The position numbers were made by a program, and so were the translations under genes. From Bacilli bacterium (GTDB lineage: Bacteria > Bacillota_I > Bacilli_A > RFN20 > UBA1709): a stretch of 64,000 bases of DNA. The notes below the pieces were generated by a model. That model was not told where the DNA came from. It worked only from the letters and a program-made list of their open reading frames with translations, and searched no databases. Every line of letters begins with the position of its first letter. Within the stretch, counting starts at the first letter, position 1. This document shows positions 6,545-44,125 of the stretch, in pieces. The stretch lies in the NCBI GenBank assembly GCA_034115825.1, contig JAXESU010000004.1, positions 205,237 to 269,236 of the forward strand. Reading direction: 5' to 3'.

Positions 6545-6590
6545 CTTAAAAAACAAAAAAAGAGGGACAAACCGGGCATACATTTAGCCC
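6545..6590 (-). terminator. Intrinsic terminator forming the expression platform of the ZTP riboswitch
   Basis: Minus-strand RNA CUGGGCUAAAUGUAUGCCCGG: a 6-bp stem with a 9-nt loop, followed by a U-rich run (UUUGUCCCUCUUUUUUUGUUUUUU). Its 5' arm overlaps the 3' pseudoknot strand CCGUCUGGGC. Confidence 0.4.
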
Positions 6591-6660
6591 AGACGGTCGA
6601 CTCTACTAATATAGTTATACTCCCATGTGGTAAACCCCACGTTCCGTCAGTTATATAACT
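6586..6660 (-). promoter_or_regulatory. ZTP (ZMP/AICAR-sensing, pfl motif) riboswitch in the leader of purEMNHD-L
   Basis: Minus-strand RNA AGUUAUAUAACUGACGGAACGUGGGGUUUACCACAUGGGAGUAUAACU...CCGUCUGGGCU. P1 is AGUUAUA/UAUAACU. ACUGACGGAAC matches the consensus ACUGGCGnAnC. P2 is GUGG-loop-CCAC. GGGAG follows. A downstream CCGUC could pair with GACGG as the pseudoknot (consensus CCGCCUGGGCA). Confidence 0.6.
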
Positions 6661-6666
6661 AATTTC

Positions 6667-6793: not shown

Positions 6794-7477
6794 ATGGAAA
6801 AGATTTATACAGGTAAGACAAAGGATGTTTATAGTTTAGAAAATGGTAATGTTTTATTAAAGTTTAAAGATGACTGTACTGGTAAAGATGGAGTTTTTGA
6901 TCCAGGAGAAAATACCGTTGGTTTAACAATTGAAGGTATTGGTAAAGAAAATTTAAAAACTTCAGTTTACTATTTTGAACTATTAAAAAAACATGGTATT
7001 AAAACTCACTATGTTAGTGCTGATGTTAAAAATGGTACAATGGAAGTTTTAAAAGGTAAAGTTTTTGGTCATGGTCTAGAAGTTATTTGTCGTCTAGTTG
7101 CTACTGGTAGTTTCATTCGTCGATATGGTGAATATATTGAAAATGGTACTCGTATCGAAAATGGATACGTTGAATGCACTTTTAAAAACGATGCTAAAGG
7201 TGACCCATTAGTAACAAGTGAAGCTTTAGAAGTTTTAGGTATCATGGATCAAAAATTGTTTAATGAAATGAAAAAACAAACATTAGCAATTACTAAAATT
7301 ATTGCTGATGATTTAAAATCAATTGGTTTAGATTTATGGGATATTAAATATGAATTCGGTTACAATAATGGCGAAATTGTTTTAATCGATGAGATTGCTT
7401 CCGGTAATATGAGAGTTTATAAAGGTAGCACAATTGTTGAACCAATTGAACTAACAAAATTAATTTTAAATCGTTAA
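6794..7477 (+). CDS. purC: SAICAR synthetase
   Basis: 227 aa. [13 protein letters not shown]... Divergent from the pur operon. Confidence 0.9.
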
Positions 7478-7478
7478 G

Positions 7479-7510
7479 GATTAGTTAAACTAATCCTTTT
7501 ATTTTTTTCA
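7479..7510 (+). terminator. Rho-independent terminator after purC
   Basis: AGGATTAGTT-aaac-TAATCCT hairpin followed by a T-run. Confidence 0.5.
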
Positions 7511-7517
7511 AAATTTA

Positions 7518-7569
7518 ATTGACTAATTAATAAATATTGATATAATATGCTTATTGATAATGATTATCA
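7518..7569 (+). promoter_or_regulatory. Promoter (TTGACT, 16-nt spacer, TATAAT) followed by a perfect 7-1-7 Fur box TGATAATGATTATCA at 7555-7569
   Basis: Read directly from the sequence. The box lies between the -10 element and the RBS of the Fur-family gene. Confidence 0.55.
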
Positions 7570-7583
7570 AGAAGGGATGATTT

Positions 7584-7982
7584 ATGGAAAGAAATACTTT
7601 ACAAAAGCAAATAGTTAAAAATGCTTTAAAATCGATGCACAACCACCCTACAGCAACAGAAGTTTATAACTACATTCATAAAGATTATCCTAGTATCTCA
7701 AAAGCAACAGTTTTTCGTATTTTAAATAACTGTTGTACAAATGGAGAATTTATGAAAGTTGATGTTAATGATAAAGAAGCCCATTATGAACTTAAGAATC
7801 CTCCTCATTATCATATGCACTGTCGAATTTGTAATAAGATTTTTGACGCTCCTATCCCCTTTGATGATTCCTTAATTAAAAAAGGATTTGAAAATAGTGA
7901 TTTTTTTGTCGAAGGTCATAGTATCGAATTCTATGGTGTCTGTAAAGAATGTCAAAAAAAGAAGGAGATTAACAATGAGTAA
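7584..7982 (+). CDS. fur: Fur-family metalloregulator (Fur/PerR)
   Basis: 132 aa. TVFRILN DNA-binding helix. [10 protein letters not shown]...C...C metal site. A perfect Fur box lies in its own leader. Confidence 0.8.
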
Positions 7983-10026
7983 ACATTTACCATTAAGTGT
8001 TCGTGTTGCAATTGAAGAAAATAATCCATCGATTGTGAGGCATGAAGATTTATGCATAAAATGTGGTTTATGCAAGGACATTTGTGAGCAAAAAATTGCT
8101 GTTCACAATTGTTATAATTTAAAAGATACAAATGATGAAGCCATTTGTATTAATTGTGGTCAATGTAGTAATGTCTGCCCAACAAATTCAATTACTGAAC
8201 GATATGAATATCATACAGTAAAAGAATTAATTAACAATCCTGATAAAATTGTTATCGTTTCCACTTCACCATCAGTAAGAGTATCTTTAGCTGAAGCATT
8301 TGATATGGAAATCGGTTCATATTTAGAAGGAAAAATGGTTGCACTTCTTCGTAAATTAGGCTTTAAATATGTTTTAAATACAAACTTTGCTGCCGATTTA
8401 ACAATCATGGAAGAAGCAAGCGAGTTAATCAAACGTATTAAAGAAAACAAAAACTTACCTCAATTTACAAGTTGCTGTCCAGCTTGGGTTAAATATGTTG
8501 AAACATTTTATCCAAATTTAATTGATAATTTGTCAACATCAAAAAGTCCAATCGGTATGCAAGGTCCAACAATTAAAACTTACTTTGCTAAAAAAAGAAA
8601 GATCGATCCAAAAAGAATTGTTAATGTTGCTTTAACACCTTGCACTGCAAAAAAGATGGAAATTCGTCGTGAAGAAATGAATGCAAGCGGCAATTATCTA
8701 GGAATCGATGACTTAAGAGATATGGATTATGTTATCACAACAAGAGAACTTATAAAATGGGCTAAAGAAGAAAACATTGATTTTAAAAACTTAAAAGATG
8801 AGCCTTATGATTCACTTATGAGTGATGCATCAGGAGCTGGAATTTTATTTGGAAATTCTGGTGGGGTTATGGAAGCAGCTTTAAGAACAGCTTATCATAT
8901 GCTTACTAATAAGGATCCTCAAGATCTATTATTAAATTTAACTCCAGTTCGTGGAATTGATGGCGTTAAAGAAGGTAGTGTGACAATCGATGGATTAACT
9001 ATCAAGTTTGCCGCTATTTCAACTACTAAAAACGCTAAAGATTTTATTGAACGTATTAACAAAAACCATGAACATTATGACTTTATTGAAGTAATGACTT
9101 GTCCAAATGGTTGTATCGGAGGCGGTGGTCAACCAAAAGAATTACTTAATACAGATTTAGATGTTTTAAAAAAACGTATGCAAGGATTATATGATAAAGA
9201 TCAACAAATTACTTTAAAATCTTCTTATCAAAATCCTGAAATTATTAAACTTTATAAACAATTTTATAAAGAACCACTAAGTGAACTTAGTGAAAAAATA
9301 TTACACACAAAATATATTGATCGAAGCAATGATTTAATTAAAGGGAGAAAAAAGAATATGAAAAAATTTAAATGTACTGTATGTGGATATATCCACGAAG
9401 CTAATGAATTAGATCCAAATTATGTTTGTCCACTTTGCAAAGTAGGCGCAGATAAATTTGTTGAAATCAAGGAAGAAGTAAAAGCAACGACTTCAAAATA
9501 TGCTGGAACAAAAACTGAAAAGAATTTAATGGAAGCTTTTGCCGGTGAATCTCAAGCAAGAAACAAATATAAATATTTTGCTGAACAAGCTTTAAATGAA
9601 GGTTATGAACAAATCGCTGCTATTTTTATGGAAACTAGTGAACAAGAAAGCCAACACGCTAAAATGTGGTTTAGCGAATTCCATGGAATTGGCAATACTG
9701 GTGAAAATTTAAAAACAGCTGCTGAAGGCGAAAACGGCGAATGGACTGATATGTATAAACGTATGGCTAAAGAAGCTCGTGAAGAAGGTTTTGAAGAATT
9801 AGCAGTTAAATTTGAACGTGTTGCAGCAGTTGAAAAAGCTCACGAAGAAAGATATTTAAAATTATTAGAAAGAATTCAAAATGGCGAAGTCTTCAAAGAA
9901 AATGGTGCTACTTTCTGGATGTGTCGTAAATGTGGTCATCTTCACTTCGGTGTTGATGCTCCTGAAGCTTGTCCAACTTGTGGCTTCCCTAAAGCATTCT
10001 TTGAAAGAAGAGCAACTAACTACTAA
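7975..10026 (+). CDS. [FeFe]-hydrogenase fused to a rubredoxin domain and a rubrerythrin (683 aa)
   Basis: Start reassigned to ATG at 7975 (MSKHLPLS...), which has RBS GAAGGAGA and overlaps the fur stop. Two ferredoxin-like CxxCxxCxxxCP motifs. H-cluster motifs [16 protein letters not shown] and [14 protein letters not shown]. Then a rubredoxin (CTVCGY...CPLC). Then a rubrerythrin ferritin-like diiron domain ([31 protein letters not shown]) with a C-terminal Cys4 (CRKCGH...CPTCG). Confidence 0.8.
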
Positions 10027-10077
10027 AAATGAAAAAGAAGTGATTTTATCGCTTCTTTTTTTATTGTATAATATAAA

Positions 10078-10536
10078 TTGATTAAAGGAGAAATTTATAT
10101 GGAAATTATTTTAGATATCGCTATTATCTTTTTTATGATTATGGAAACTAGTAACATTATCATTATGTATTTTAAACCAGATTTTAAATATGGAAATAGT
10201 ATGATTGCTTTTAAAAAATGGCAAGAAAGTCAAGATGATGAAAAAAGTAAACTTTATAGCAAATATTTGGTTAATTGGGTTGCCAATTGTAAATTAATCT
10301 TTATTATTTTACTTTTAGTAATTTTAATTTTTGCAACACCTACTATTAAAGTATATGCCATTATCGCGATGATTATTTCAATTGCCATTTATTTCGTTAG
10401 CTTATATCCACTAATTAAAAAGATGGATCAATTAAACGAAATAAACCCAAAAGGATATTCAAAGACTTTATCAATAATGATTTTGATGTTTATTTTAATT
10501 TTTGTTACTTCACTTATTTTATATTTTATTTTATAG
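10078..10536 (+). CDS. Small polytopic membrane protein, function unknown
   Basis: 152 aa, about four hydrophobic segments. A terminator hairpin (GTTCACAT-TATA-ATGTGAAC plus T-run) sits at 10537-10565. Confidence 0.3.
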   Translation: MIKGEIYMEIILDIAIIFFMIMETSNIIIMYFKPDFKYGNSMIAFKKWQESQDDEKSKLYSKYLVNWVANCKLIFIILLLVILIFATPTIKVYAIIAMIISIAIYFVSLYPLIKKMDQLNEINPKGYSKTLSIMILMFILIFVTSLILYFIL

Positions 10537-10620: not shown

Positions 10621-11940
10621 ATGGCTCTCTCACTTACCTGTTTATTAATATCAATTATTTCCCTATTTGTGTGTGTTAATAAATTTCCAACAATATCTTT
10701 TAAAATTAAAAAGGTTAATTTTTCTATACAAACTTTTTATATTGTCCCTTTTATTAGTGCTCTTATTTTAATCACATTTAAAGCTGTTTCTAAAACGGAC
10801 CTTCTTTCATTAATTGATTTTTCTTTACCCGTAAATCCAATTAAAATTTTAATGTTATTTATCTCAATTTCTTTTATTTCCATTTGTCTTGATAAGGCTG
10901 GATTTTTTTCAATGTGTGCTTCAAAGGCTTTAAATAAAGCTAAAGGGTCTAATTTATTGTTTTTTATTCTTCTTTACCTTACAGTATCAATTTTAACTAT
11001 ATTTACTTCTAACGATATCGTTGTTTTGACTTTTACACCTTTTATCTGTTACTATACTGCCATTAAAAAAACCAATCCTCTACCATATTTATTTATTGAA
11101 TTTATCGCGGCTAATTCTTGGTCAATGATGCTTGAAATAGGTAATCCGACAAATATCTATCTAGCATTAAGCGCTAATATTTCTTTTATCGAATATTTTA
11201 AAATAATGTTTTTACCAACCTTTATTTCTTGTTTATCATCGTTCTTTCTTGTTATTTTTATCTTTCGAAAATCAATATTTAGTTACAAAAAAGATAATTT
11301 AGAACAAAAAATTTCTAATTTTCAATATAGTATTGATAAAAATATGATTATCGTTAGTTTAATTCACTTAATCATATGTTTATTTGGTTTAATCTTTTTT
11401 AGTGATTATATGTACATTGTTTGTCTAATTTGTGCAATAAGTTTAAGTCTATTCATGATTATTAATGATATTATTCATAAAACTAAAATCTCAATCGAGG
11501 TATATAAGAAACTACCATATGCAATGATTCCGTTTATCTTATCAATGTATATTATTGTTTGTAGTTTAAACAATGCGAATGTGACTGATATTATTGCTAA
11601 TGGATTAAATACGTTAGCGATTAACGATTTAACTACCGCCTTAACTTATGGATATACTTCTATAATTAGTTGTAATATTTTAAATAATATTCCAATGAGC
11701 ATTCTATATTCATCGATATTGGCAAATAACAATAATATCATTGCTATTTATGCAACTATTATCGGTTCAAACTTAGGTGCCCTTCTTACACCAATTGGTG
11801 CTTTAGCCGGTATAATGTGGCTATCAATTTTAAAAAATCAAAATATCAAAATTTCGTTTACTAGTTTTACTAAATATTGTGGTGTAATTTGCTTTTTTAC
11901 GGCTTTGATTGCCTTTATTACTTTAGCTATTGTTATATAA
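10621..11940 (+). CDS. Polytopic membrane transporter (ArsB/NhaD/CitMHS-like ion-transporter superfamily, tentative)
   Basis: 439 aa with 10-12 hydrophobic segments. The family call is a tentative resemblance only, without clear signature motifs. Confidence 0.35.
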   Translation: MALSLTCLLISIISLFVCVNKFPTISFKIKKVNFSIQTFYIVPFISALILITFKAVSKTDLLSLIDFSLPVNPIKILMLFISISFISICLDKAGFFSMCASKALNKAKGSNLLFFILLYLTVSILTIFTSNDIVVLTFTPFICYYTAIKKTNPLPYLFIEFIAANSWSMMLEIGNPTNIYLALSANISFIEYFKIMFLPTFISCLSSFFLVIFIFRKSIFSYKKDNLEQKISNFQYSIDKNMIIVSLIHLIICLFGLIFFSDYMYIVCLICAISLSLFMIINDIIHKTKISIEVYKKLPYAMIPFILSMYIIVCSLNNANVTDIIANGLNTLAINDLTTALTYGYTSIISCNILNNIPMSILYSSILANNNNIIAIYATIIGSNLGALLTPIGALAGIMWLSILKNQNIKISFTSFTKYCGVICFFTALIAFITLAIVI

Positions 11941-11951
11941 AAAAGGTCAAC

Positions 11952-12746
11952 TTAATTGACCTTTTTATTGTTCTTTTTTTCTTGTAATTCTTTAACTACT
12001 TCAATATAATTTTCATCATTACTCTTAGATGCTTCTTCACTAGCATAATCCAAATCTTTAACATTACGAATTAAATAGCCATTTAACCAATTGTTTTTAC
12101 TTTTTAAGGAAATATAACCTAATACTGCTACAAATAAGCTCCCACAAAAACATACAATAATATCGCCCATCGTATCAATTAAACCAACTCTTCCTGGATC
12201 TTTAATGTTTAAGACATCACCAACAATTTGCCAACGTTGCATATTAGCACCTGTTAATGAATCAATGCTAAATTCATAAATTTCCCAGACCGCTGCGATC
12301 ATCATTGAAAAACAAAAAGAAAATAAAGCGACAAAAAATGGGGATAAACTTAAATGAGTGTTCTTAGATTCGTTTAATAAATTAACTAAACTAAAACCTA
12401 AAGCAGCAAATGCTAGTCCACTTGTTGCATGCAATATTTTATCAAAAACAAGTGAATAATCATAAATTCGATATATTTCTCCAAGAATAAAATGCGCATA
12501 GATAAAAACAATGGCTATAATTTGAAGTCGAGATGGAATATAAAGATGCCATTTTTTAGCAATAAAAGCTGGCACATTTAATAAAATTAAACCTAATAAA
12601 GCTAAGAATATATGATTAAAGCCATTACTATTTTCTTTATCAATCACAATTTCAACGATTGACCAAATTATTGTAGCCATAATCAATATTTGTAAAATTA
12701 ATGTTACAATTTTGACTGATTTTTGATCAGTTATATTTTTTTTCAT
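11952..12746 (-). CDS. Membrane protein, unknown function
   Basis: 264 aa, multiple transmembrane segments. Convergent with the previous gene across a bidirectional hairpin AAAAGGTCAA-CTTA-ATTGACCTTTTT (11941-11970). Confidence 0.3.
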   Translation of the reverse strand: MKKNITDQKSVKIVTLILQILIMATIIWSIVEIVIDKENSNGFNHIFLALLGLILLNVPAFIAKKWHLYIPSRLQIIAIVFIYAHFILGEIYRIYDYSLVFDKILHATSGLAFAALGFSLVNLLNESKNTHLSLSPFFVALFSFCFSMMIAAVWEIYEFSIDSLTGANMQRWQIVGDVLNIKDPGRVGLIDTMGDIIVCFCGSLFVAVLGYISLKSKNNWLNGYLIRNVKDLDYASEEASKSNDENYIEVVKELQEKKNNKKVN

Positions 12747-31585: not shown

Positions 31586-31930
31586 TCACTTTAAAATTGT
31601 TCGAGTAGCTATAACATCTACTCCTAAGTTTAAAACATTTTTGATTATAACATCGTGCATTTTAATTGGTGCTTTACAAACAACTTTATTTATTTCATCC
31701 ATAACATCAAACATTTTTTCTTTGGGAATATCTCCACTTGTTTTAACAGGTAAACGATTAATACTCGATGAAATAATTTTAACCGTTGAAGTTATATTAC
31801 GCATTGGGTGAGTTACTTCATCTAAAGCATATTTTTCTCCACGTTTACAAGTATTACCACTTACTTTTAAATCATCACTAACTTTTAAACGACATCCTTT
31901 AGGACAAATAATACAAACAAATTCTTTCAT
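31586..31930 (-). CDS. DUF1667-like small Cys-containing protein (third gene of a GlpA-like cluster)
   Basis: 114 aa. CIICPKGC motif at the N-terminus. Conserved position after the two oxidoreductases. Confidence 0.5.
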   Translation of the reverse strand: MKEFVCIICPKGCRLKVSDDLKVSGNTCKRGEKYALDEVTHPMRNITSTVKIISSSINRLPVKTSGDIPKEKMFDVMDEINKVVCKAPIKMHDVIIKNVLNLGVDVIATRTILK

Positions 31931-31934
31931 TTAC

Positions 31935-33191
31935 TTATCCCTCCACTACTTCAAAAGATAATACACCGACATTATCTTTGAATAAATCTTTACTTATGTC
32001 AATGCTTTCCATTTCAGCTGGTAGCATATGTGGTTTAAACACTTTTTTAACTTCCTGATCATTAAATTTAACGACAATACGCGAATTACTAAAAGGTTTA
32101 CGAACTCTAAAATTAAAGGTTACTTTATCTTTAACATTAATTAAACGAATGCGTGATGGAACAGTATAGGCAATACCATTTTTAGCAACACATTCAATAT
32201 AATTATTATCTTTGACTAAATTTCCTTTTAAATATTCACTACATGCTTTACCTGCTCTTCTTCCTTCATTGGTGACAAAATCAACTAAGTCATGAACATG
32301 AAGAACATTACCACAGGCAAAGATTCCTTCAATATCACATTCAAGCGATTCATTAACTAATGCTCCTCTTGTAGTACTATTTTGTCTTACCCCTAAATTA
32401 TCTAATAATTCATTCGAAGGAATAAGGCCAACAGAAAGAAGTAATGTGTCTACATCAAAGACTTTTTCGGTTCCTTTAATCGGTTGAAATTTATCATCAA
32501 CTTGACTAATTTCAATTTGCTCTAAATGACCTTTACCTTTAATATTTGTTACCGTATGTGATAAATATAATGGAATATCAAAATCATTTAAACATTGAGC
32601 AATATTACGACTTAAACCATTTGAATAAGGCATAAGTTCGGCAACACCTAATACTTTAGCTCCTTCTAAAGTCATTCTTCGAGCCATGATTAAACCAATA
32701 TCACCACTACCAAGAATAAAAACTTTTTTACCAACTAAATAACCATCAATATTTAAATATTTTTGAGCAAGTCCAGCAGTCATAACCCCACTTGGACGAT
32801 CTCCAGGAATTGAAATTGCTCCACGATTTCGTTCACGACAACCAGTTGCTAAAATAATGCTTTTAGCTTTAACAACTTGATAGCCTTCTAAACTATTAGC
32901 GTAATAAACTTCTTTATTTTGACTAATCGATAAAACAACTGTATTAAGTTTATATTCAATTCCCAATTCATTTATCTTATTAGCAAAGCGTTCGGCATAT
33001 TCTGGGCCACTTAATTGTTCTTTAAATTCTTGAAGGCCAAAACCGGTATGAATACATTGAAGTAAAATACCTCCAAGTGCTTCATCACGTTCTAAAATTA
33101 AAATATTTTTAATACCGTTTTGATAAGCTTCAATAGCACTAGCCATACCACCACTTCCACCACCAATGACGACTAAATCATATTCTTTCAT
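31935..33191 (-). CDS. NAD(P)/FAD-dependent pyridine nucleotide-disulfide oxidoreductase
   Basis: 418 aa. GGGSGG dinucleotide motif at the N-terminus and a second GSGDIG motif. Confidence 0.7.
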   Translation of the reverse strand: MKEYDLVVIGGGSGGMASAIEAYQNGIKNILILERDEALGGILLQCIHTGFGLQEFKEQLSGPEYAERFANKINELGIEYKLNTVVLSISQNKEVYYANSLEGYQVVKAKSIILATGCRERNRGAISIPGDRPSGVMTAGLAQKYLNIDGYLVGKKVFILGSGDIGLIMARRMTLEGAKVLGVAELMPYSNGLSRNIAQCLNDFDIPLYLSHTVTNIKGKGHLEQIEISQVDDKFQPIKGTEKVFDVDTLLLSVGLIPSNELLDNLGVRQNSTTRGALVNESLECDIEGIFACGNVLHVHDLVDFVTNEGRRAGKACSEYLKGNLVKDNNYIECVAKNGIAYTVPSRIRLINVKDKVTFNFRVRKPFSNSRIVVKFNDQEVKKVFKPHMLPAEMESIDISKDLFKDNVGVLSFEVVEG

Positions 33192-33193
33192 TG

Positions 33194-34627
33194 TTATTGT
33201 CCCTCCTTGGTAGTGAATCGTAAAATATTCGAATCTTTACGACCTAATAAAATTTCTTTTTCATCTTTATGAAGTTCTCTTGCTAAAATTTTAACAACTA
33301 AACTCTCACAAAATCCACCTTGGCATTTACCAAATCCCGGACGAACACGTTTTTTAACCCCGCGAACAGTTGTTGCTCCGCAAGGTCGATGAATTGCATC
33401 TAAAATTTCGCCTTCACTAATTTTTTCACAACGGCAAATTAAATGAGCAAAACGATGATCTAATTGATAATATTTATTTTTTTCTTCTTCACTTAAATTA
33501 CCAAGTTTAACAAACGGTCTTCTTGTTGGATTAAAATTCTTTTTCTTTTGAAGGTCATTGTTTCTTTTAATTAAATCAACAACATATAATGCTATTGCAT
33601 AAGATGAAGCAAGACCCGGAGATTGAATACCGGTTACGTGATAAAAATTAGCATTATTTTGATCTTCTTCAATAATAAAATCATTTGTTTGTGATACTGC
33701 ACGATTACCAGCAAACGAACGAATTATTTGATTAAAAGGAATATTTTTAACAACTTTATTAACTCCTAAACGAACATTATCTAAAGTATCTTTATCAGTT
33801 GAATAATCATCAATATTATCAACAAATTCACTTGATGGACCTAACAAATAGTTTCCATGAGTTGTTGGCGTAACTAATATCCCTTTTCCTTTACTTGTTG
33901 GAAGTGGGAAAATCGTATGAGTAACAAAAGGAGTTTTAAAGTGATCTAAAACAAAATATTCACCTTTACGAGGTTTAATTTTAATTTCAGTATTACCAAT
34001 CATTTTAGCGATTTTCTCACCATTCAAACCCGAAGCATTAATTACCATCTTTGTTTGATAACAATCTTTTGTTGTTTTAACAACATAAAAACCATTATCA
34101 TTTTGAATATCAATTACTTCTTCATCCAAATGAAGTTTAACCCCATTTTCAATCGCATTTTCCATTAAGGCAACACAATATTCAAATGGATTAACAATTC
34201 CACATGTTGGGGCTAATAAACCATATTTAATATCATCTTGAATAAATGGCTCAATTTTTAAAAGTTCTTCGCGATTTAAAATCGTTGTTTGAACTCCATT
34301 AAGTTCACCATTACGTCGCATTTCTTTAAGTGTTTCTAAATCACTTTCATTACTAGCAACAGTAATACTTCCAATTCGTTTAAAATCAAACCCTAATTCT
34401 AAACTTAACTTATCAAATAAACTATTCCCTAACACATTTAATTTAGCTTTTAAGGTATTAGGGTGTGGATCATAACCACTATGAACAATCGCGCTATTAG
34501 CCATTGAAGTAACTTCACAAACATCTTCTTCTTTTTCAATAACTAAAGTATTTAATTGATAAGACGATAATTCACGAGCAATACTACTTCCAATAACCCC
34601 TGCTCCAATAATTATTACATCTAACAT
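33194..34627 (-). CDS. FAD-dependent glycerol-3-phosphate dehydrogenase/oxidase-like enzyme with a C-terminal BFD-like [2Fe-2S] domain
   Basis: 477 aa. IIGAGVIGSSIA FAD motif. C-terminal CRCEKISEGEI...GKCQGGFC. Confidence 0.7.
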   Translation of the reverse strand: MLDVIIIGAGVIGSSIARELSSYQLNTLVIEKEEDVCEVTSMANSAIVHSGYDPHPNTLKAKLNVLGNSLFDKLSLELGFDFKRIGSITVASNESDLETLKEMRRNGELNGVQTTILNREELLKIEPFIQDDIKYGLLAPTCGIVNPFEYCVALMENAIENGVKLHLDEEVIDIQNDNGFYVVKTTKDCYQTKMVINASGLNGEKIAKMIGNTEIKIKPRKGEYFVLDHFKTPFVTHTIFPLPTSKGKGILVTPTTHGNYLLGPSSEFVDNIDDYSTDKDTLDNVRLGVNKVVKNIPFNQIIRSFAGNRAVSQTNDFIIEEDQNNANFYHVTGIQSPGLASSYAIALYVVDLIKRNNDLQKKKNFNPTRRPFVKLGNLSEEEKNKYYQLDHRFAHLICRCEKISEGEILDAIHRPCGATTVRGVKKRVRPGFGKCQGGFCESLVVKILARELHKDEKEILLGRKDSNILRFTTKEGQ

Positions 34628-34638
34628 TTTTATCCCCC

Positions 34639-36135
34639 CTACTTAAATGTTTGGGTTGCTTTAACTGCCTTTTTCCAACCATCGTATAATTTGTTTATTT
34701 CAGCTTCTGGCATTGTTGGATAATAATCTTTACCTATTCGATGACATTTTTTAATATCATTGATGTCTTTATAAAAACCAATTGCGAGTCCTGCTAAATA
34801 TGCTGCGCCTAACGCTGTTGTTTCACTTACACATGGTAACTTTACTTCAACATTTAAGATGTCACTTTGAAATTGCATTAAGAAATTATTACTAGTAGCT
34901 CCTCCATCAACGTATAAACATTTTAAAGGAATTTTAGCTTCTTCTAGCATAACATTCATTACATCTTTACTTTGATAGGCAATCGACTCTAAAACGGCAC
35001 GAATTAAATGCTCTTTACTAGTTCCTCTTGTAAGACCAAAAATAGCACCACGAGCATCATTATCCCAATAAGGTGTTCCTAAACCAACAAAAGCTGGAAC
35101 AATATAAACGCCATTACTATCTTTAACTCTAATAGCATATTGTTCACTATCTTTTGCGTCTTTAATCATTCGTAAACCATCTCTAATCCATTGAACAACA
35201 CTACCACCAATAAAAACCGATCCTTCTAACGCATAAGTAACTTTACCATTAAGTCCCCAAGCAATTGTTGTTAATAAACCATTATTTGAATAAACTGGTT
35301 TATCTCCGGTATTCATAAGCATAAAACAGCCTGTTCCATAGGTGTTTTTGGCTTCTCCAACTTCATAACAACATTGACCGAAAAGGGCCGCTTGTTGGTC
35401 ACCAGCAATTCCGGTAATTGGAATATGATATGGTGTTTTAAATGGTGAAAATTGTTCAGCATAACCATAGATTTCACTTGATGATTTAACATCTGGTAAC
35501 ATACTTCGCTTAATCCCAAAGATTTGTAATAACTCATCATCCCAATCAAGCGTATTAATGTTAAATAACATTGTTCTTGAAGCATTAGTATAATCAGTAA
35601 CATGGACTTTACCATTAGTTAATTTATAAATTAACCATGTATCAATCGTTCCAAATAATAAACGATCTTCATCTAATAACTGTTTAGCTTTAGGGACATT
35701 ATCTAAAATCCATTTAATTTTAGTCGCACTAAAATATGGATTAATGATTAATCCTGTTTTTTGGTGAACTATATCACTATAGCCTTTTTTAATTAGATTA
35801 TCAGCGATTTCTTGACTTTGACGTGATTGCCACACAATCGCATTATAAACGGGTTCTTTAGTTACTTTATCAAATAAAACAGTTGTTTCACGTTGATTAG
35901 TTATCCCAATGGCAGCAATTTGTTTAATATCTATTCCTGTTTTGATTAATAAAGATGAAATAACATCAACAATTGACGACCATATTTCAAGCGGATCATG
36001 TTCGACCCATCCAGGATGTTGAAAAATCTGAGGAAATTCTTTTTGGGCCATACCAACATTATTACCTTCTTTATCAAAAAGAATAGCACGAGAGCTAGTT
36101 GTCCCTTGATCTAAAGCTAAAATATATTTTTTCAT
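34639..36135 (-). CDS. glpK: Glycerol kinase
   Basis: 498 aa. [15 protein letters not shown] and FGGS sugar-kinase motifs. Confidence 0.9.
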
Positions 36136-40909: not shown

Positions 40910-43900
40910 ATGAATTTAATTTACAAAAAACAACTTCGTGATGCCCTTCATAAAAAGAAATTATATATTACATTATTTATCATTACCCTTCTAGGAATGA
41001 TTTTTTATGCCGGGTTTACAAGTGTTCGCAATAACTTAAAATATTCGATTAACCAATACTATTTAGAACAAAATTTATGTGATTATACTATTAAATCTTC
41101 GACTTATTTTAATAGTGATGAAGCTAATAATTTTGCCAAAGAATTTTCTTTGATTGATTTATATCATCATAGTGTTGTCGTTAATGAAGGAGATATCTAT
41201 TATAAGAATGATATTAGCGTTAATATTCCTCTTATTATCGAGGGCGAATATTTTAATGATCAACCAAATTATATTTTAGATTATGATTACGCATTAAAAC
41301 ATCATTATCATGTTGGTGATACTTTTTTTATTGAAAATGATCGTTATACTATAACTGCTTTAGCAAAGTTCGTTGATTATATTTTTAAAGGAAACTATAT
41401 GCCTGTCAGTAACGAAAGCTATGTTTTCTTAATAAGTAATACTTCATTTAATAATTATAATGAAATTAGTTTTAAGTCATCACTTTCTTTAAAAGAAATA
41501 AAGGGTATCGCTAACAATTACTTTAGTAATGATTTTGTCGTTATTAAAACTAGCGATCAATATAGTTATACTCGTGTTAATAACGATTTAGATTTAATTA
41601 ATTCGATTTTATTCATTTTTCCTATTGCGTGTTTTATTTCAATTATTATTATTTTATACATCAATTACAATCGCCTAATTCAAGATCAAAAAAAATATTT
41701 AGGAATTTTAAAAGCTAATGGTTTTAAAGTTCGTCATCTATTTTTTAGTTTAACAATTATTCCACTTACAATTGTTTTACTTGCTTCTCTTTGTGGTTCA
41801 TTAATTGGAATAAAAGTAATTCCTTTAGTTTATGTTAACTTACTTAAAAGTTATTATTGTTTACCTCCTTTAAGAACTGCTAGTTTATTTTATAGTGTTG
41901 GTCTTCCAATTTTAATTTTATTTTTCACTTCATTCATTACTATTTGTGTTCCTCTACTTTTAACAGTTTTCAAAACTCCAATGGAGCTAATGAAAAATGA
42001 AGACAGTAATAATAAAACAAGGATGATTTTTAAAAATACTAATCTTCCATATCATTTAAAGCTTGTCGCTCGTAATATCTTAACTTATACCAAAAAAAAT
42101 ATTTGTATGATCCTTTCTTCGACAATTATTTTAGGTATTGTTCTAGCTATTTTCTTTGTTGAAGATTCAATTAATTATACTGATGAAACATTAGCCAAAA
42201 AATCTTTCAATGCTGATTATTATTTAGCAATAAATAATTATTACTATGACGATGCTAAAACAATTTTAGAACAAGATGATAGTCCAATTAGTGATTTTTA
42301 TTATATAAATAGTATCAATATTAAGACAGAATATGAAAATATTCGAGAGGACTTATATCTATATGATGAAACAAAACCTTCACTGAAAGTTGACGATATT
42401 AATAATAATCCTCTCGATTTAACAAAAAGAGGAATATATTTACCTTCTAGTTATCAAAAATATGGTCTTAATATAAATGATGAAATTACTATTTATTTCA
42501 GTGTCGATAATTATGTTAGACCATTTAAATTTCCTGTTGCCGGCTTTATTAAAGAATTTGGTTTAACTAAATTTGCGATGTCATTACAAACTATTGAAGA
42601 TTTAAATAAACAAATTGCTGACTACTTAAAAGAAATCCCTACGCCATTTTTTGTTAAACTTAAAGATAGTTATACAAATAATGATTTAGCCGAATTTGTT
42701 GAAGATAATTTTAAATATTATCCATTAATCACTTCCTTAAACAACAATTTAAACTATCAATATAAGACTGAAACAAAAATTACTAATAGTGATACGATAA
42801 GTGATGTTACTACTTTTGCTAATTTAGAAACATATATCCCTTACAATAGTAACAAGTTAGATCTATATTTATTTGATTATAAAACGACTACTTTAGTTTT
42901 AAATGATCAAAATAATCAACCGATTACCTTTAAAAACGATGGCTTATATATCAATGAAAAAACAGCTTATAACCTCCAATTACATATTGGTGATACTGTA
43001 ATTATCAATTATTTAGATACGATTATTCCTCTTACTCTCAGTGGGATTACTAATTCTTTTATTGATAGTTATTGTGACTTTAATTATTTTAATTTAATGT
43101 ATAAATTTAGTGGTGGAAAAGAAACTATTAAAAAAGAATATTTATTTAATTCTACCCTAACAATGACTGAGCTAAAAGAACAAGGATTAAAAGATTTTAG
43201 TTATTTCCGTTTCAATTATCTAAATGATTTATATTGTTTTAATAATAGTGGAATAAAAATAGATGATTTTGAATCATTAATTGATGGTAATACTATCTAT
43301 AGCCGTTATCAAACATATCAAAGCATCATAAATAATAATGATAAAGATAGCAAACTATCCTTAACTGTTTTAGAAGATGGTATGATTACTAACATTAACG
43401 ATAATGGAATATATTTACCTATTCAATACGATAAGAATTATGATATAAACGATTCAATAAATATTCGTCTTAATAATAAAAATTACACGATGAAAATTGA
43501 AGGTTTTATTAAAGCAACCTCATTTGGAGCATTTGCAAGTTCGACTTACTTAAAAACTATTAGTAACGATTTTACTTTTAATAAAGATTATTCTTCATAC
43601 TTAATTAAAACAAATAATATTAGTCAACTTAAAGATAATATTTTTACTAATCAAGAATATCATCATTTTTCAATCAATAACTTAAGTTCATTTAAACGCA
43701 ACATGAAATTAATTTATGATATTATTACTTTAACAAAAGTTATCACTACTGTTTTAGCAGGTTCAATCTTTATTTTGTTAAGTTATAATATTGGCGTTAT
43801 TTGTTTAAATGCTCGCTTAAACGATATTAAATGCTTTAAAGCAATGGGTTATAAAGAAAGTAAACTAAATCATATGTTAACATTAGAAAATGTCATCATC

Positions 43901-44125
43901 GTCATTATTGGTGCGATTTTAGCTGTTCCAATCGGAAGAGTAATGTGTGACTACATTTTAAAACAAGTTTTTATTATTACAATGGTAAGAATGTTCATAT
44001 CCACATCATTTTTAACTATTTTAACTGTTATCATTATTGCAATAACATTAATATTAATTGCTTCAAATTTTATCAATCGTAAAGTAAGTCGTCTGGACTT
44101 ATTAACTCTATTAAAGGAGAAATAA
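40910..44125 (+). CDS. ABC exporter permease with two FtsX/MacB-type modules
   Basis: 1071 aa. Transmembrane helix, large extracytoplasmic domain, four transmembrane segments, second large domain, and a C-terminal four-TM FtsX module. Confidence 0.65.
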   Translation: MNLIYKKQLRDALHKKKLYITLFIITLLGMIFYAGFTSVRNNLKYSINQYYLEQNLCDYTIKSSTYFNSDEANNFAKEFSLIDLYHHSVVVNEGDIYYKNDISVNIPLIIEGEYFNDQPNYILDYDYALKHHYHVGDTFFIENDRYTITALAKFVDYIFKGNYMPVSNESYVFLISNTSFNNYNEISFKSSLSLKEIKGIANNYFSNDFVVIKTSDQYSYTRVNNDLDLINSILFIFPIACFISIIIILYINYNRLIQDQKKYLGILKANGFKVRHLFFSLTIIPLTIVLLASLCGSLIGIKVIPLVYVNLLKSYYCLPPLRTASLFYSVGLPILILFFTSFITICVPLLLTVFKTPMELMKNEDSNNKTRMIFKNTNLPYHLKLVARNILTYTKKNICMILSSTIILGIVLAIFFVEDSINYTDETLAKKSFNADYYLAINNYYYDDAKTILEQDDSPISDFYYINSINIKTEYENIREDLYLYDETKPSLKVDDINNNPLDLTKRGIYLPSSYQKYGLNINDEITIYFSVDNYVRPFKFPVAGFIKEFGLTKFAMSLQTIEDLNKQIADYLKEIPTPFFVKLKDSYTNNDLAEFVEDNFKYYPLITSLNNNLNYQYKTETKITNSDTISDVTTFANLETYIPYNSNKLDLYLFDYKTTTLVLNDQNNQPITFKNDGLYINEKTAYNLQLHIGDTVIINYLDTIIPLTLSGITNSFIDSYCDFNYFNLMYKFSGGKETIKKEYLFNSTLTMTELKEQGLKDFSYFRFNYLNDLYCFNNSGIKIDDFESLIDGNTIYSRYQTYQSIINNNDKDSKLSLTVLEDGMITNINDNGIYLPIQYDKNYDINDSINIRLNNKNYTMKIEGFIKATSFGAFASSTYLKTISNDFTFNKDYSSYLIKTNNISQLKDNIFTNQEYHHFSINNLSSFKRNMKLIYDIITLTKVITTVLAGSIFILLSYNIGVICLNARLNDIKCFKAMGYKESKLNHMLTLENVIIVIIGAILAVPIGRVMCDYILKQVFIITMVRMFISTSFLTILTVIIIAITLILIASNFINRKVSRLDLLTLLKEK

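What the first reader, a model, noticed from the sequence alone, without database searches (positions are those of the whole stretch)
7555..10026. Single polypeptide joining an [FeFe]-hydrogenase, a rubredoxin and a rubrerythrin, under a Fur box
All three H-cluster motifs ([30 protein letters not shown]) plus N-terminal ferredoxin-like clusters are followed in-frame by a rubredoxin CxxC...CxxC domain. A complete rubrerythrin follows (diiron ExxH helices plus a C-terminal rubredoxin-like Cys4). This architecture would allow H2-driven reduction of peroxide or O2 within one protein: hydrogenase to rubredoxin to rubrerythrin. The gene is translationally coupled to a Fur-family regulator. A perfect 7-1-7 Fur box lies in the shared leader, implying metal- or oxidative-stress control.
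Basis: partly seen in the sequence, partly recalled or inferred. Interest (0 to 1): 0.55.

Follow-up and report, generated by a model that had tools for sequence, protein, structure and literature searches.

The report
Hydrogen-powered peroxide reductase with its own repressor
This is a real gene for one protein that joins a hydrogen-splitting enzyme to a peroxide-destroying enzyme, a fusion already predicted in 2007-2010 and shown in 2025 to use H2 to reduce H2O2. Here it sits in a two-gene operon behind its own Fur/PerR-type repressor and that repressor's binding site.

Summary
An uninterrupted 683-codon ORF (7975-10026, +) encodes these domains in order:
- two [4Fe-4S] ferredoxin motifs
- a complete group A [FeFe]-hydrogenase H-domain ([32 protein letters not shown])
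- a short rubredoxin
- a rubrerythrin four-helix diiron domain with all seven ligands
- a second rubredoxin-like Cys4 centre

It overlaps by 8 nt the stop of a 132-aa Fur-family gene (7584-7982). An exact TGATAATGATTATCA box (7555-7569) lies just after a near-consensus promoter, and terminators bracket the two genes.

This is the "HydR" architecture (Meyer 2007, Calusinska 2010). C. perfringens HydR was shown in 2025 to be an H2-dependent H2O2 reductase. Full-length homologues occur in at least 80 species-level genomes of gut anaerobes.

The modest addition is the regulator. About one third of hydR loci carry a Fur-family gene directly upstream. All of these have a PerR-type metal site (Asp at BsPerR position 104). 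Regulators with Asn61 pair with TTAGAATnATTCTAA boxes. The window's regulator has Arg61 and a Fur-type box. I read it as a peroxide-sensing, PerR-like autorepressor with Fur-box specificity, at about 55% confidence.

The parts
7476..7498 (+). Terminator-like hairpin plus T-run after purC. It marks the upstream boundary of the operon.
   Evidence: 10-bp stem followed by TTATTTTTTT
7519..7546 (+). Promoter: -35 TTGACT (7519-7524), 16-nt spacer, TG-extended -10 TATAAT (7541-7546).
   Evidence: 11 of 12 matches, with TG before the -10; sequence
7555..7569 (.). Operator: exact 7-1-7 Fur-type box TGATAATGATTATCA, which extends to the 17-nt palindrome TTGATAATGATTATCAA (7554-7570). It starts 8 nt after the -10 hexamer, so it lies over the expected transcription start.
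   Evidence: 1 exact match, 0.01 expected. Equivalent boxes occupy the same place in L007, L081, L006 and L090.
7584..7982 (+). Fur-family regulator of 132 aa, PerR-like. Aligned to B. subtilis PerR: H21=H37, R45=N61, E69=D85, H75=H91, H77=H93, D88=D104, with structural Cys4 at C80/C83/C120/C123.
7975..10026 (+). hydR: 683-aa [FeFe]-hydrogenase - rubredoxin - rubrerythrin fusion. The ATG overlaps the regulator's stop codon by 8 nt, and an AAGGAGA ribosome-binding site lies at 7962-7968.
8029..8214 (+). F-domain with two [4Fe-4S] ferredoxin motifs (C27/30/33/37 and C58/61/64/68). This is the 'M2' type N-terminus.
8245..9324 (+). H-domain (Fe_hyd_lg_C, residues 91-384) plus the small-subunit-like tail (residues 396-450). 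H-cluster cysteines are C168, C223, C376 and C380, with proton-relay C167. The L2 motif is TPCTAKKME.
9358..9474 (+). Rubredoxin 1: a shortened Fe(Cys)4 domain with C467, C470, C485 and C488.
   Evidence: Low-confidence linkers flank it at residues 458-460 and 501-505 in the AlphaFold2 model.
9496..9879 (+). Rubrerythrin four-helix-bundle diiron domain. Ligands are E525, E558, H561, E586, E589, E620 and H623, equivalent to D. vulgaris rubrerythrin E20, E53, H56, E94, E97, E128 and H131. The loop between helices 2 and 3 is the short form.
9910..10014 (+). Rubredoxin 2: the C-terminal rubrerythrin Fe(Cys)4 domain with C650, C653, C666 and C669.
10031..10061 (+). Intrinsic-terminator-like hairpin plus T-run, 5 nt after the hydR stop codon. 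It marks the downstream boundary of the two-gene operon.

Best explanation
The locus is a self-contained two-gene operon: promoter, operator, repressor gene, hydR, terminator.

The enzyme. hydR encodes an H2:H2O2 oxidoreductase of the HydR type. H2 is split at the H-cluster. Electrons pass through the two [4Fe-4S] F-clusters to the Fe(Cys)4 rubredoxin centres and then to the rubrerythrin diiron site, which reduces H2O2 to water. By analogy with C. perfringens HydR the protein probably works as a domain-swapped homodimer and is strongly biased toward H2 uptake.

The regulator. The upstream 132-aa Fur-family protein most likely dimerises on the TGATAATGATTATCA palindrome, which lies over the transcription start, and represses both genes. 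I propose it is a PerR-type sensor. Its regulatory metal site has the PerR-specific Asp at position 104, so H2O2 would oxidise a metal-binding His, release the repressor and induce the peroxide reductase. Newly made repressor would then shut the operon off once H2O2 is gone. Its recognition helix carries Arg instead of the PerR-typical Asn, which explains why the operator is a Fur-type box rather than a PerR-type box.

Shown here: the ORF, the domains, all ligands, the operon signals, the box, and the conservation of both the architecture and the regulator linkage.
Shown in the literature for a homologue: the H2-dependent H2O2 reductase activity.
Inferred: the activity of this particular protein, the electron path, repression at the box, and peroxide as the signal.

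Probabilities: enzyme function about 0.85; PerR-like peroxide control about 0.55.
For: Enzyme:
- Intact ORF with all motifs.
- Pfam and NCBIfam hits above curated cut-offs for group A [FeFe] hydrogenase and for rubrerythrin.
- All 8+5+4+7+4 metal ligands are invariant in 32 full-length homologues of 60-78% identity.
- The diiron ligands align one-to-one with D. vulgaris rubrerythrin. The 13-residue loop between helices 2 and 3 is missing, the same feature Taylor et al. link to the dimeric P. furiosus type in CperHydR.
- The L2 motif TPCTAKKME carries the Thr and Ala of the uptake-biased CpII (TPCTAKKYE) and CperHydR (TPCTAKKFE).
- The AlphaFold2 model has mean pLDDT 85, with low-confidence linkers exactly between the domains. 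Its hydrogenase part matches solved group A hydrogenases such as DdH and CpI.
- CperHydR, with the same architecture, reduces H2O2 with H2 at 442 per min and does not when CO-inhibited (PMC11926857).

Regulator:
- A promoter matching 11 of 12 consensus positions is followed directly by the box, and terminators lie on both sides of the two genes.
- The exact box has a chance expectation of 0.01 in the window.
- The best PDB match is B. subtilis PerR (1e-16, ungapped), ahead of every Fur.
- The best NCBIfam models are the two PerR equivalogs, at 80 and 74 bits against 53 for Bacillus Fur.
- D88 aligns with PerR D104, and R45 with PerR N61. These are the residues reported to discriminate PerR from Fur in peroxide sensitivity and box choice (Parent 2013 and Caux-Thang 2015, as cited in PMC8638967).
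- 24-25 of 74 evaluable species-level hydR loci have a Fur-family gene directly upstream on the same strand. All of these regulators carry H37, D/E85, H91, H93, D104 and both CxxC pairs.
- All 15 regulators with Asn61 have a TTAGAATnATTCTAA-like box. That box fits the published PerR-box consensus NTANAANNATTNTAN (PMC3458967).
- Among Arg61 regulators, the window, L007 and L081 have TGATAATnATTATCA.

Functional logic (inference): a classical Fur would switch on an 18-iron protein during iron starvation, which makes little sense. A PerR would switch on a peroxide reductase when peroxide appears.
Against: - There are no biochemical data for this protein.
- Its identity to CperHydR could not be measured, because the sequence was not retrievable.
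- No HydE/F/G maturase or H2-producing hydrogenase was seen in the part of the window I scanned, so maturation and the H2 source are unverified.
- CperHydR itself is O2-sensitive, and its physiological role is still only proposed.
- The regulator scores far below the curated cut-offs of every PerR and Fur equivalog.
- It has Glu at the D85 position and Arg at the N61 position, both Fur-like, and the box is a perfect Fur consensus that does not fit the PerR consensus.
- The closest hydR homologue with genomic context (78% identity) and a Clostridium saudiense homologue have no adjacent regulator.
- Most hydR loci without a regulator show no recognisable box, so this wiring is optional.
- Related regulators at 42-52% identity stand alone, away from any hydR, so the subfamily is not dedicated to hydR.
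Confidence: 0.72

Rival explanations
1. Same enzyme, but the operon is under iron control. The upstream protein is a true iron-sensing Fur, or a separate global Fur binds the box, so expression follows iron availability rather than peroxide.
For: - The box is an exact match to the classical 7-1-7 Fur consensus and violates the PerR-box consensus at positions 2 and 14.
- The regulator has Arg at the recognition-helix position that distinguishes Fur from PerR, and Glu at the D85 position as in Fur.
- The enzyme needs about 18 Fe per chain, so a link to iron status is conceivable.
Against: - Asp rather than Glu occupies the position that separates PerR/Irr from Fur/Zur/Mur/Nur.
- PerR profiles and the B. 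subtilis PerR structure outscore every Fur.
- A holo-Fur repressor would induce an iron-rich enzyme under iron starvation, which is counter-intuitive (inference).
- In 15 other lineages the hydR-linked regulator has Asn61 and a box that fits the PerR consensus.
Confidence: 0.22
2. The physiological acceptor is O2 (or both O2 and H2O2). On this reading the protein is an H2-dependent oxidase that scavenges O2, as the reader also suggested.
For: - The cofactor chain that would serve O2 is the same one that is present here.
- From my own knowledge, not a tool result: some rubrerythrin-family proteins, such as the reverse rubrerythrin of C. acetobutylicum, are reported to reduce both H2O2 and O2.
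Against: The only characterised homologue was assayed with H2O2, and its hydrogenase domain was inactivated by O2 about as fast as a standard clostridial enzyme. Classical rubrerythrins strongly prefer H2O2 (general knowledge).
Confidence: 0.1
3. The fusion is an assembly or annotation artefact, or a decaying gene with no function.
For: None found.
Against: - The reading frame is uninterrupted.
- A 99%-identical full-length protein occurs in an independent assembly (P0001).
- The top 80 species-level genome hits and more than 200 listed protein clusters almost all cover the query end to end.
- All ligands are invariant.
Confidence: 0.01

Closest known systems
CperHydR, the [FeFe] hydrogenase-rubrerythrin chimera of Clostridium perfringens (CPF_1076; Taylor et al., JACS 2025, PMC11926857)
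   Same: - Single polypeptide with 2x[4Fe-4S], H-cluster, rubredoxin, diiron four-helix bundle and a second rubredoxin.
- L2 motif of the uptake-biased CpII type (TPCTAKKxE).
- Short loop between rubrerythrin helices 2 and 3, implying a domain-swapped dimer.
- Predicted function H2 + H2O2 -> 2 H2O.
   Different: - Different organism: low-GC, and the best relatives are Erysipelotrichaceae and Massilicoli.
- L2 has Met where CperHydR has Phe.
- Identity to CperHydR was not measured.
- Here the gene is co-transcribed with a Fur/PerR-family repressor. The paper mentions no regulator or operon.
Monomeric 'M2'-type clostridial [FeFe] hydrogenases with a C-terminal rubredoxin-rubrerythrin-rubredoxin module (classification of Meyer 2007 and Calusinska et al. 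2010, as redrawn in Land et al. 2019, PMC6984386)
   Same: Exactly this modular structure was predicted from genomes.
   Different: I could not read the original papers, so I do not assign the exact sub-class letter.
CpII, the H2-uptake [FeFe] hydrogenase II of Clostridium pasteurianum
   Same: M2 layout and the Thr/Ala variant of the L2 motif that is associated with uptake bias.
   Different: CpII has no rubredoxin or rubrerythrin extension.
Bacillus subtilis PerR (PDB 2FE3/3F8N), and PerR-controlled rubrerythrin genes of clostridia
   Same: - Best structural-sequence match, aligned without gaps.
- His37, His91, His93 and Asp104 are conserved, as is the Cys4 zinc site.
- Autoregulated operator over the promoter.
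- The controlled gene is a peroxide reductase.
   Different: Arg replaces Asn61, Glu replaces Asp85, and the operator is a Fur-type box (TGATAAT half-site) rather than a PerR-type box. Scores are below the PerR equivalog cut-offs.
Classical rubrerythrin with separate rubredoxin and NADH:rubredoxin oxidoreductase (e.g. D. vulgaris Rbr, 1B71; P. furiosus Rbr)
   Same: Diiron ligands and the C-terminal Fe(Cys)4 domain (NCBIfam rubrerythrin equivalog passed).
   Different: Electrons come from a fused hydrogenase and H2 instead of from NAD(P)H through separate proteins.

Membership tests
HydR ([FeFe] hydrogenase-rubrerythrin chimera) | One uninterrupted polypeptide joining HydA and rubrerythrin | tested here: met
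   683-codon ORF with no internal stop. Homologues have the same length and coverage.
HydR ([FeFe] hydrogenase-rubrerythrin chimera) | H-cluster motifs L1 TSCCPxW, L2 (M/T)PCxxKxxE and L3 ExMxCxxGCxxGGGQP, plus two N-terminal [4Fe-4S] motifs | tested here: met
   All are present at residues 165-171, 221-229, 372-387, 27-37 and 58-68, and all are invariant in 32 homologues.
HydR ([FeFe] hydrogenase-rubrerythrin chimera) | Two Fe(Cys)4 rubredoxin centres flanking a diiron four-helix bundle with Glu/His ligands | tested here: met
   C467/470/485/488 and C650/653/666/669; E525, E558, H561, E586, E589, E620 and H623 align to the D. vulgaris rubrerythrin ligands.
HydR ([FeFe] hydrogenase-rubrerythrin chimera) | Short loop between rubrerythrin helices 2 and 3 (P. 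furiosus-like, dimer-forming), as reported for CperHydR | tested here: met
   13-residue gap relative to D. vulgaris rubrerythrin in the phmmer alignment; the paper's statement is.
HydR ([FeFe] hydrogenase-rubrerythrin chimera) | H2-dependent catalytic reduction of H2O2, with strong bias toward H2 uptake | not testable with these tools
   Shown only for CperHydR.
HydR ([FeFe] hydrogenase-rubrerythrin chimera) | Sequence similarity to the characterised CperHydR itself | not tested
   The sequence is not in the held supplement and not among the listed hits. A Clostridium saudiense orthologue is 62% identical.
[FeFe] hydrogenase group A (NCBIfam TIGR02512) | Score above the curated cut-off | tested here: met
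   459.9 bits against a cut-off of 405.95. The group B1 model scores 159 against a cut-off of 450. HydDB sub-group assignment was not available.
Rubrerythrin (NCBIfam NF045767 equivalog) | Score above the curated cut-off | tested here: met
   229.8 bits against a cut-off of 200.
PerR (peroxide-sensing Fur-family repressor) | Fur-family fold with a Cys4 structural site | tested here: met
   PF01475 at 66 bits; C80/C83/C120/C123 align with C96/C99/C136/C139 of B. subtilis PerR.
PerR (peroxide-sensing Fur-family repressor) | Regulatory site His37, Asp85, His91, His93, Asp104, with Asp rather than Glu at position 104 | tested here: inconclusive
   H21, H75, H77 and D88 match, but position 85 is Glu. 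Asp104 is the discriminating residue according to PMC8638967.
PerR (peroxide-sensing Fur-family repressor) | Asn in the DNA-recognition helix (Asn61) and a PerR-type box (NTANAANNATTNTAN) | tested here: not met
   Arg45 occupies that position. The box has G at position 2 and C at position 14.
PerR (peroxide-sensing Fur-family repressor) | Curated equivalog score | tested here: not met
   80.1 bits against a cut-off of 180, and 74.3 against 200.
Fur (iron-sensing repressor) | Fur box TGATAATnATTATCA and Arg in the recognition helix | tested here: met
   Exact box at 7555-7569; Arg45.
Fur (iron-sensing repressor) | Glu at the position equivalent to PerR Asp104; curated equivalog score | tested here: not met
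   Asp88. The Bacillus Fur model scores 53 bits against a cut-off of 220.

The most novel reading that the evidence does not exclude
The upstream gene is a natural 'PerR with a Fur reading head': a peroxide-sensing repressor (Asp104) whose Arg61 makes it use a Fur-type operator. Together with hydR it would form a portable, self-resetting, peroxide-inducible 'H2-powered peroxidase' cassette.

Such cassettes occur in about one third of hydR loci. They come in two operator/recognition-helix dialects: Asn61 with TTAGAATnATTCTAA, and Arg61 with TGATAATnATTATCA.

If true, this would give the missing physiological evidence that HydR belongs to the oxidative-stress response. It would also be a natural counterpart of the engineered PerR N61R switch.
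Probability: 0.45. Interest if true: 0.45.

Novelty: new member of a known kind. Interest (0 to 1): 0.3.

Why it matters
The enzyme lets a strict anaerobe spend fermentation-derived H2 to destroy H2O2 without drawing on NAD(P)H. That is relevant to how gut anaerobes survive oxygen exposure. The chemistry and the architecture are already published, so this locus adds another member rather than a new principle.

What it does add is genomic evidence about regulation. In many lineages hydR is wired to its own PerR-like repressor, which supports the oxidative-stress role that the 2025 study could only propose. The locus also offers a simple two-gene system for testing how Fur-family proteins pair the sensing residue (Asp or Glu at position 104) with the DNA-reading residue (Asn or Arg at position 61).

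Tried and rejected
1. TTG 7888 as the start codon (the longest ORF). Rejected: homologues start at MSKHLPL and a ribosome-binding site precedes ATG 7975.

2. The box as a chance AT-rich palindrome. Rejected for the exact match (0.01 expected). The relaxed pattern with up to 2 mismatches is not enriched, so no regulon can be inferred from this window.

3. hydR as universally regulated through such a box. Rejected: in 48 loci without an adjacent regulator, only 3-6 have a weak match upstream. The 78%-identical homologue and the C. saudiense homologue lack the regulator.

4. The regulator subfamily as dedicated to hydR. Rejected: relatives at 42-52% identity stand alone, several of them downstream of sleB-ypeB.

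5. Obtaining the CperHydR sequence, to measure identity. This failed both through the paper's supplement and through a homologue search seeded with a Clostridium orthologue.

6. Foldseek of the whole model against the PDB returned only hydrogenase chains and added nothing beyond the sequence searches. Model coordinates are not exposed, so I could not measure cluster-to-cluster distances.

7. HydE/F/G, a second hydrogenase, a second Fur paralogue or another rubrerythrin in the window. tblastn with the two proteins of the locus found no further Fur-family, hydrogenase or rubrerythrin sequence, and the 20 further ORFs scanned with Pfam held no HydE/F/G. The rest of the genome is unknown.

8. The MMBR review on hydrogen metabolism in pathogens is not held. 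HydDB is not available.
Full report
**What is in the sequence**

Between a terminator-like hairpin after purC (7476-7498) and another after the long ORF (10031-10061) lies a compact two-gene unit. It begins with a near-consensus promoter: TTGACT at 7519-7524, a 16-nt spacer, and a TG-extended TATAAT at 7541-7546, matching 11 of 12 consensus positions. Eight bases after the -10 hexamer starts TGATAATGATTATCA (7555-7569), which extends to the 17-nt palindrome TTGATAATGATTATCAA. This is the only exact match to the 7-1-7 pattern in the 64 kb window, with 0.01 expected from shuffles. With two mismatches allowed the pattern is not enriched.

A 132-codon Fur-family gene follows at 7584-7982 (PF01475, 66 bits). 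Its last codons overlap the ATG of the long ORF in the sequence ATGAGTAA, and that ATG is preceded by AAGGAGA. The long ORF runs from 7975 to 10026, encodes 683 residues and has no internal stop. The mechanically longest start, TTG 7888, is not the real one, because all homologues begin MSKHLPL.

**The fusion protein**

Pfam finds two Fer4 motifs, Fe_hyd_lg_C (1e-90), Fe_hyd_SSU, Rubrerythrin (4e-21) and two copies of the rubrerythrin-type rubredoxin domain. NCBIfam places it above the curated cut-offs of '[FeFe] hydrogenase, group A' (460 against 406 bits) and of the rubrerythrin equivalog (230 against 200 bits). It falls well below the group B1 cut-off.

Also present are two CxxCxxCxxxC motifs, a CxxC-14-CxxC rubredoxin, two ExxH motifs and a terminal CxxC-12-CxxC. 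In an alignment of 32 full-length homologues (60-78% identical) every predicted ligand is invariant:
- F-clusters: C27/30/33/37 and C58/61/64/68
- H-cluster: C167, C168, C223, C376, C380
- Rubredoxin 1: C467/470/485/488
- Diiron site: E525, E558, H561, E586, E589, E620, H623
- Rubredoxin 2: C650/653/666/669

The C-terminal 175 residues align end to end with solved rubrerythrins (9FJ2 at 7e-64; D. vulgaris 1B71 at 2e-46), with the diiron ligands in register. There is a 13-residue gap in the loop between helices 2 and 3. The N-terminal 450 residues match solved group A hydrogenases (T. kivui HDCR HydA2 at 1e-109, CpI at 1e-98).

An AlphaFold2 model built on the alignment has mean pLDDT 85. Its only low-confidence stretches are short linkers at residues 458-460, 501-505 and 641-643 and the last three residues (681-683), which makes it a beads-on-a-string arrangement of four modules. 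Foldseek against the PDB returns DdH, CpI and HydABC HydA for the hydrogenase part. The middle rubredoxin is a shortened version of the clostridial rubredoxin.

**It is already known**

A literature search immediately finds Taylor et al., JACS 2025 (PMC11926857). Following earlier genome surveys (Calusinska et al. 2010; the nomenclature of Meyer 2007 and Calusinska 2010 is redrawn in PMC6984386 with a 'rubredoxin-rubrerythrin-rubredoxin' module), they expressed the C. perfringens protein CPF_1076 and named it HydR. Their results:
- The enzyme showed essentially no H2 evolution.
- Catalytic H2-dependent reduction of H2O2 ran at 442 +/- 120 per min and was abolished when CO replaced H2.
- Modelling indicated a homodimer, because the rubrerythrin part lacks the 13-residue loop of the monomeric D. 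vulgaris type.

The window protein shares that deletion. It also shares the Thr/Ala form of the L2 motif that the authors associate with uptake bias: CpII TPCTAKKYE, CperHydR TPCTAKKFE, here TPCTAKKME.

I could not retrieve the CperHydR sequence, so identity to the characterised enzyme is unmeasured. A Clostridium saudiense orthologue is 62% identical.

**How common it is**

- The protein database returns a 99%-identical protein from an independent assembly, plus far more homologues than the 120 listed. All but one of those 120 cover 99-100% of the query, and all carry both hydrogenase and rubrerythrin Pfam domains.
- A second search seeded with a Clostridium orthologue gives another 120 full-length clusters. 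Sources name them '[FeFe] hydrogenase, group A' or 'rubrerythrin' in C. symbiosum, Blautia, Hespellia and others.
The best 80 loci are 48-73% identical, and almost all cover the query end to end; the few shorter matches lie mostly on truncated contigs. They come from Erysipelotrichaceae (closest: 73%; Massilicoli timonensis 68%), Lachnospiraceae, Oscillospiraceae, Fusobacterium, Phascolarctobacterium, Selenomonadaceae, Sutterella/Burkholderiaceae, Spirochaetales and Christensenellales.

Its low GC content (about 0.27) and its nearest relatives suggest an Erysipelotrichales-like gut Firmicute.

**The regulator and its box**

This is the part not covered by the paper, which never mentions PerR, a regulator or an operon.

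The window protein's best solved relative is B. subtilis PerR (1e-16), aligned without gaps and ahead of all Fur structures. Its best NCBIfam models are two PerR equivalogs (80 and 74 bits), ahead of Bacillus Fur (53 bits), but all fall far below the cut-offs.

The ungapped alignment maps its residues onto B. subtilis PerR as follows:

| Window regulator | B. subtilis PerR | Comment |
|---|---|---|
| H21 | H37 | conserved |
| R45 | N61 | Fur-like Arg |
| E69 | D85 | Fur-like Glu |
| H75 | H91 | conserved |
| H77 | H93 | conserved |
| D88 | D104 | PerR-type Asp |
| C80/C83/C120/C123 | C96/C99/C136/C139 | zinc site conserved |

According to PMC8638967, which cites Parent et al. 2013 and Caux-Thang et al. 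2015, Asp versus Glu at the 104-equivalent position separates PerR/Irr from Fur/Zur/Mur/Nur. Asn versus Arg in the recognition helix separates PerR-box readers from Fur-box readers. The window protein is therefore a hybrid: a PerR-type sensing residue with a Fur-type reading residue. The Fur-type box in front of it is exactly what the Arg predicts.

**Comparative support**

I built an HMM from the linked regulators and searched the 80 species-level loci. Of the 74 with enough upstream sequence, 24 (25 with L081) have a Fur-family gene directly upstream of hydR on the same strand. Two more have one about 800 nt upstream, and one has it downstream.

All 23 regulators I aligned (the window's, L086's and 21 from the species-level loci) keep H37, D/E85, H91, H93, D104 and both CxxC pairs. 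The 15 with Asn61 (Oscillospiraceae, Flavonifractor, Gemmiger, Owariibacterium and some Lachnospiraceae) all have a TTAGAATnATTCTAA-like palindrome 11-25 nt before the start codon. That palindrome fits the published PerR-box consensus NTANAANNATTNTAN (PMC3458967).

Among the Arg61 regulators:
- The window, Massilicoli (TGATAATGAGTATCA) and an uncultured Bacilli genome (TGATAATCATTATCA) have the Fur-type box in the same position.
- L006, L086 and L090 keep a good right half-site (ATTATCA, ATTATCG, ATTGTCA) with a diverged left half.
- Three other Arg61 regulators have different palindromes or none that I could recognise.

Limits on this pattern:
- The linked regulators score best against PerR models but never reach the cut-offs.
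- The linkage is optional. The 78%-identical hydR and the C. saudiense hydR have no regulator, and hydR loci without one rarely show a box.
- Relatives of the regulator at 42-52% identity stand alone.
- In one genome the regulator-hydR pair (59% and about 73% identical) sits next to a relaxase fragment and an IS200-type transposase.

**Most likely mechanism**

Enzyme (probability about 0.85): H2 is oxidised at the H-cluster. Electrons pass through the two F-clusters to the rubredoxin centres and on to the diiron site, which reduces H2O2 to water. By analogy with CperHydR this probably happens within a domain-swapped dimer.

Regulation (probability about 0.55): the metal-loaded regulator dimer sits on the palindrome over the transcription start and represses both genes. 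H2O2 oxidises a metal-binding His, as in PerR, and the operon is derepressed. Newly made repressor then closes it again.

The iron-sensing alternative (about 0.22) rests on the perfect Fur box, Arg45 and Glu69. It would mean inducing an approximately 18-iron protein under iron starvation, which I consider unlikely; that judgement is an inference. Oxygen as the main acceptor (about 0.1) cannot be excluded.

**Context**

The operon is embedded in ordinary chromosomal genes:
- purD, purH, purN, purM and purE on the minus strand, with purC on the plus strand
- then a small membrane protein, an ArsB/CitMHS-type transporter, and DegV, MarR and SPFH genes
- further away pgk, gap, and a glycerol kinase / glycerol-3-phosphate dehydrogenase cluster

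tblastn with the two proteins of the locus finds no second Fur-family gene, hydrogenase or rubrerythrin in the window, and the 20 further ORFs scanned with Pfam include no HydE/F/G maturase.

**Verdict**

This is a new member of a known kind. The recurrent coupling to a PerR-like regulator, in two operator/recognition-helix dialects, is a modest and testable addition that supports the proposed oxidative-stress role of HydR.

Noticed in passing
window 6580-6664 (-): A ZMP/ZTP riboswitch (Rfam RF01750, 61.9 bits against a gathering score of 39) lies directly upstream of the purE-purM-purN-purH-purD gene string on the minus strand, about 900 nt upstream of the finding.
   Followed up: no
L086 2563-6452 (also L087): In one genome the regulator-hydR pair (regulator 59% identical, same 8-nt overlap) sits right after a relaxase-domain ORF and an IS200-type Y1 transposase. 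This suggests the cassette can travel on mobile elements.
   Followed up: partly
L078, L058, L048, L038, L050, L053, L075, L026, L046, L022, L049, L028 and others, 11-25 nt before the regulator start codon: A second, very uniform operator type, TTAGAATnATTCTAA, precedes hydR-linked regulators that have Asn at the PerR-61 position. Arg61 regulators have TGATAATnATTATCA-like boxes instead. This looks like residue-to-base co-variation across lineages.
   Followed up: partly
L088, L089, L092 (regulators P0148, P0154, P0136): Stand-alone relatives of the regulator (42-45% identical, also with Arg61 and Asp104) lie in all three genomes directly downstream of the spore-cortex genes sleB-ypeB. This synteny is conserved and unrelated to hydR.
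   Followed up: no
window 31586-36135 (-): A cluster of glycerol kinase, an FAD-dependent glycerol-3-phosphate dehydrogenase/oxidase-like protein with a BFD [2Fe-2S] domain, a pyridine-nucleotide-disulphide oxidoreductase and a 114-aa ORF. Enzymes of this type can be an endogenous source of H2O2 in some low-GC bacteria (my own knowledge). No link to hydR was tested.
   Followed up: no
window 10099-10536 (+) and 11952-12746 (-): Two predicted membrane proteins (145 and 263 aa) have no Pfam family. The first follows the hydR terminator and precedes an ArsB/CitMHS-type transporter gene (10621-11940).
   Followed up: no
window 40910-44125 (+) and 45830-47320 (-): A 1071-aa FtsX-type permease, and a 495-aa protein with an N-terminal prepilin-type methylation motif, the latter within a minus-strand run of ORFs that were not scanned.
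   Followed up: no
L001 5880-5930: The closest hydR with genomic context (78% identity) has no adjacent regulator. It does have AT-rich near-palindromes upstream (TAATAATAATTATAA, one mismatch from a PerR-type box), so it may be controlled in trans. In such AT-rich DNA this could also be chance.
   Followed up: partly
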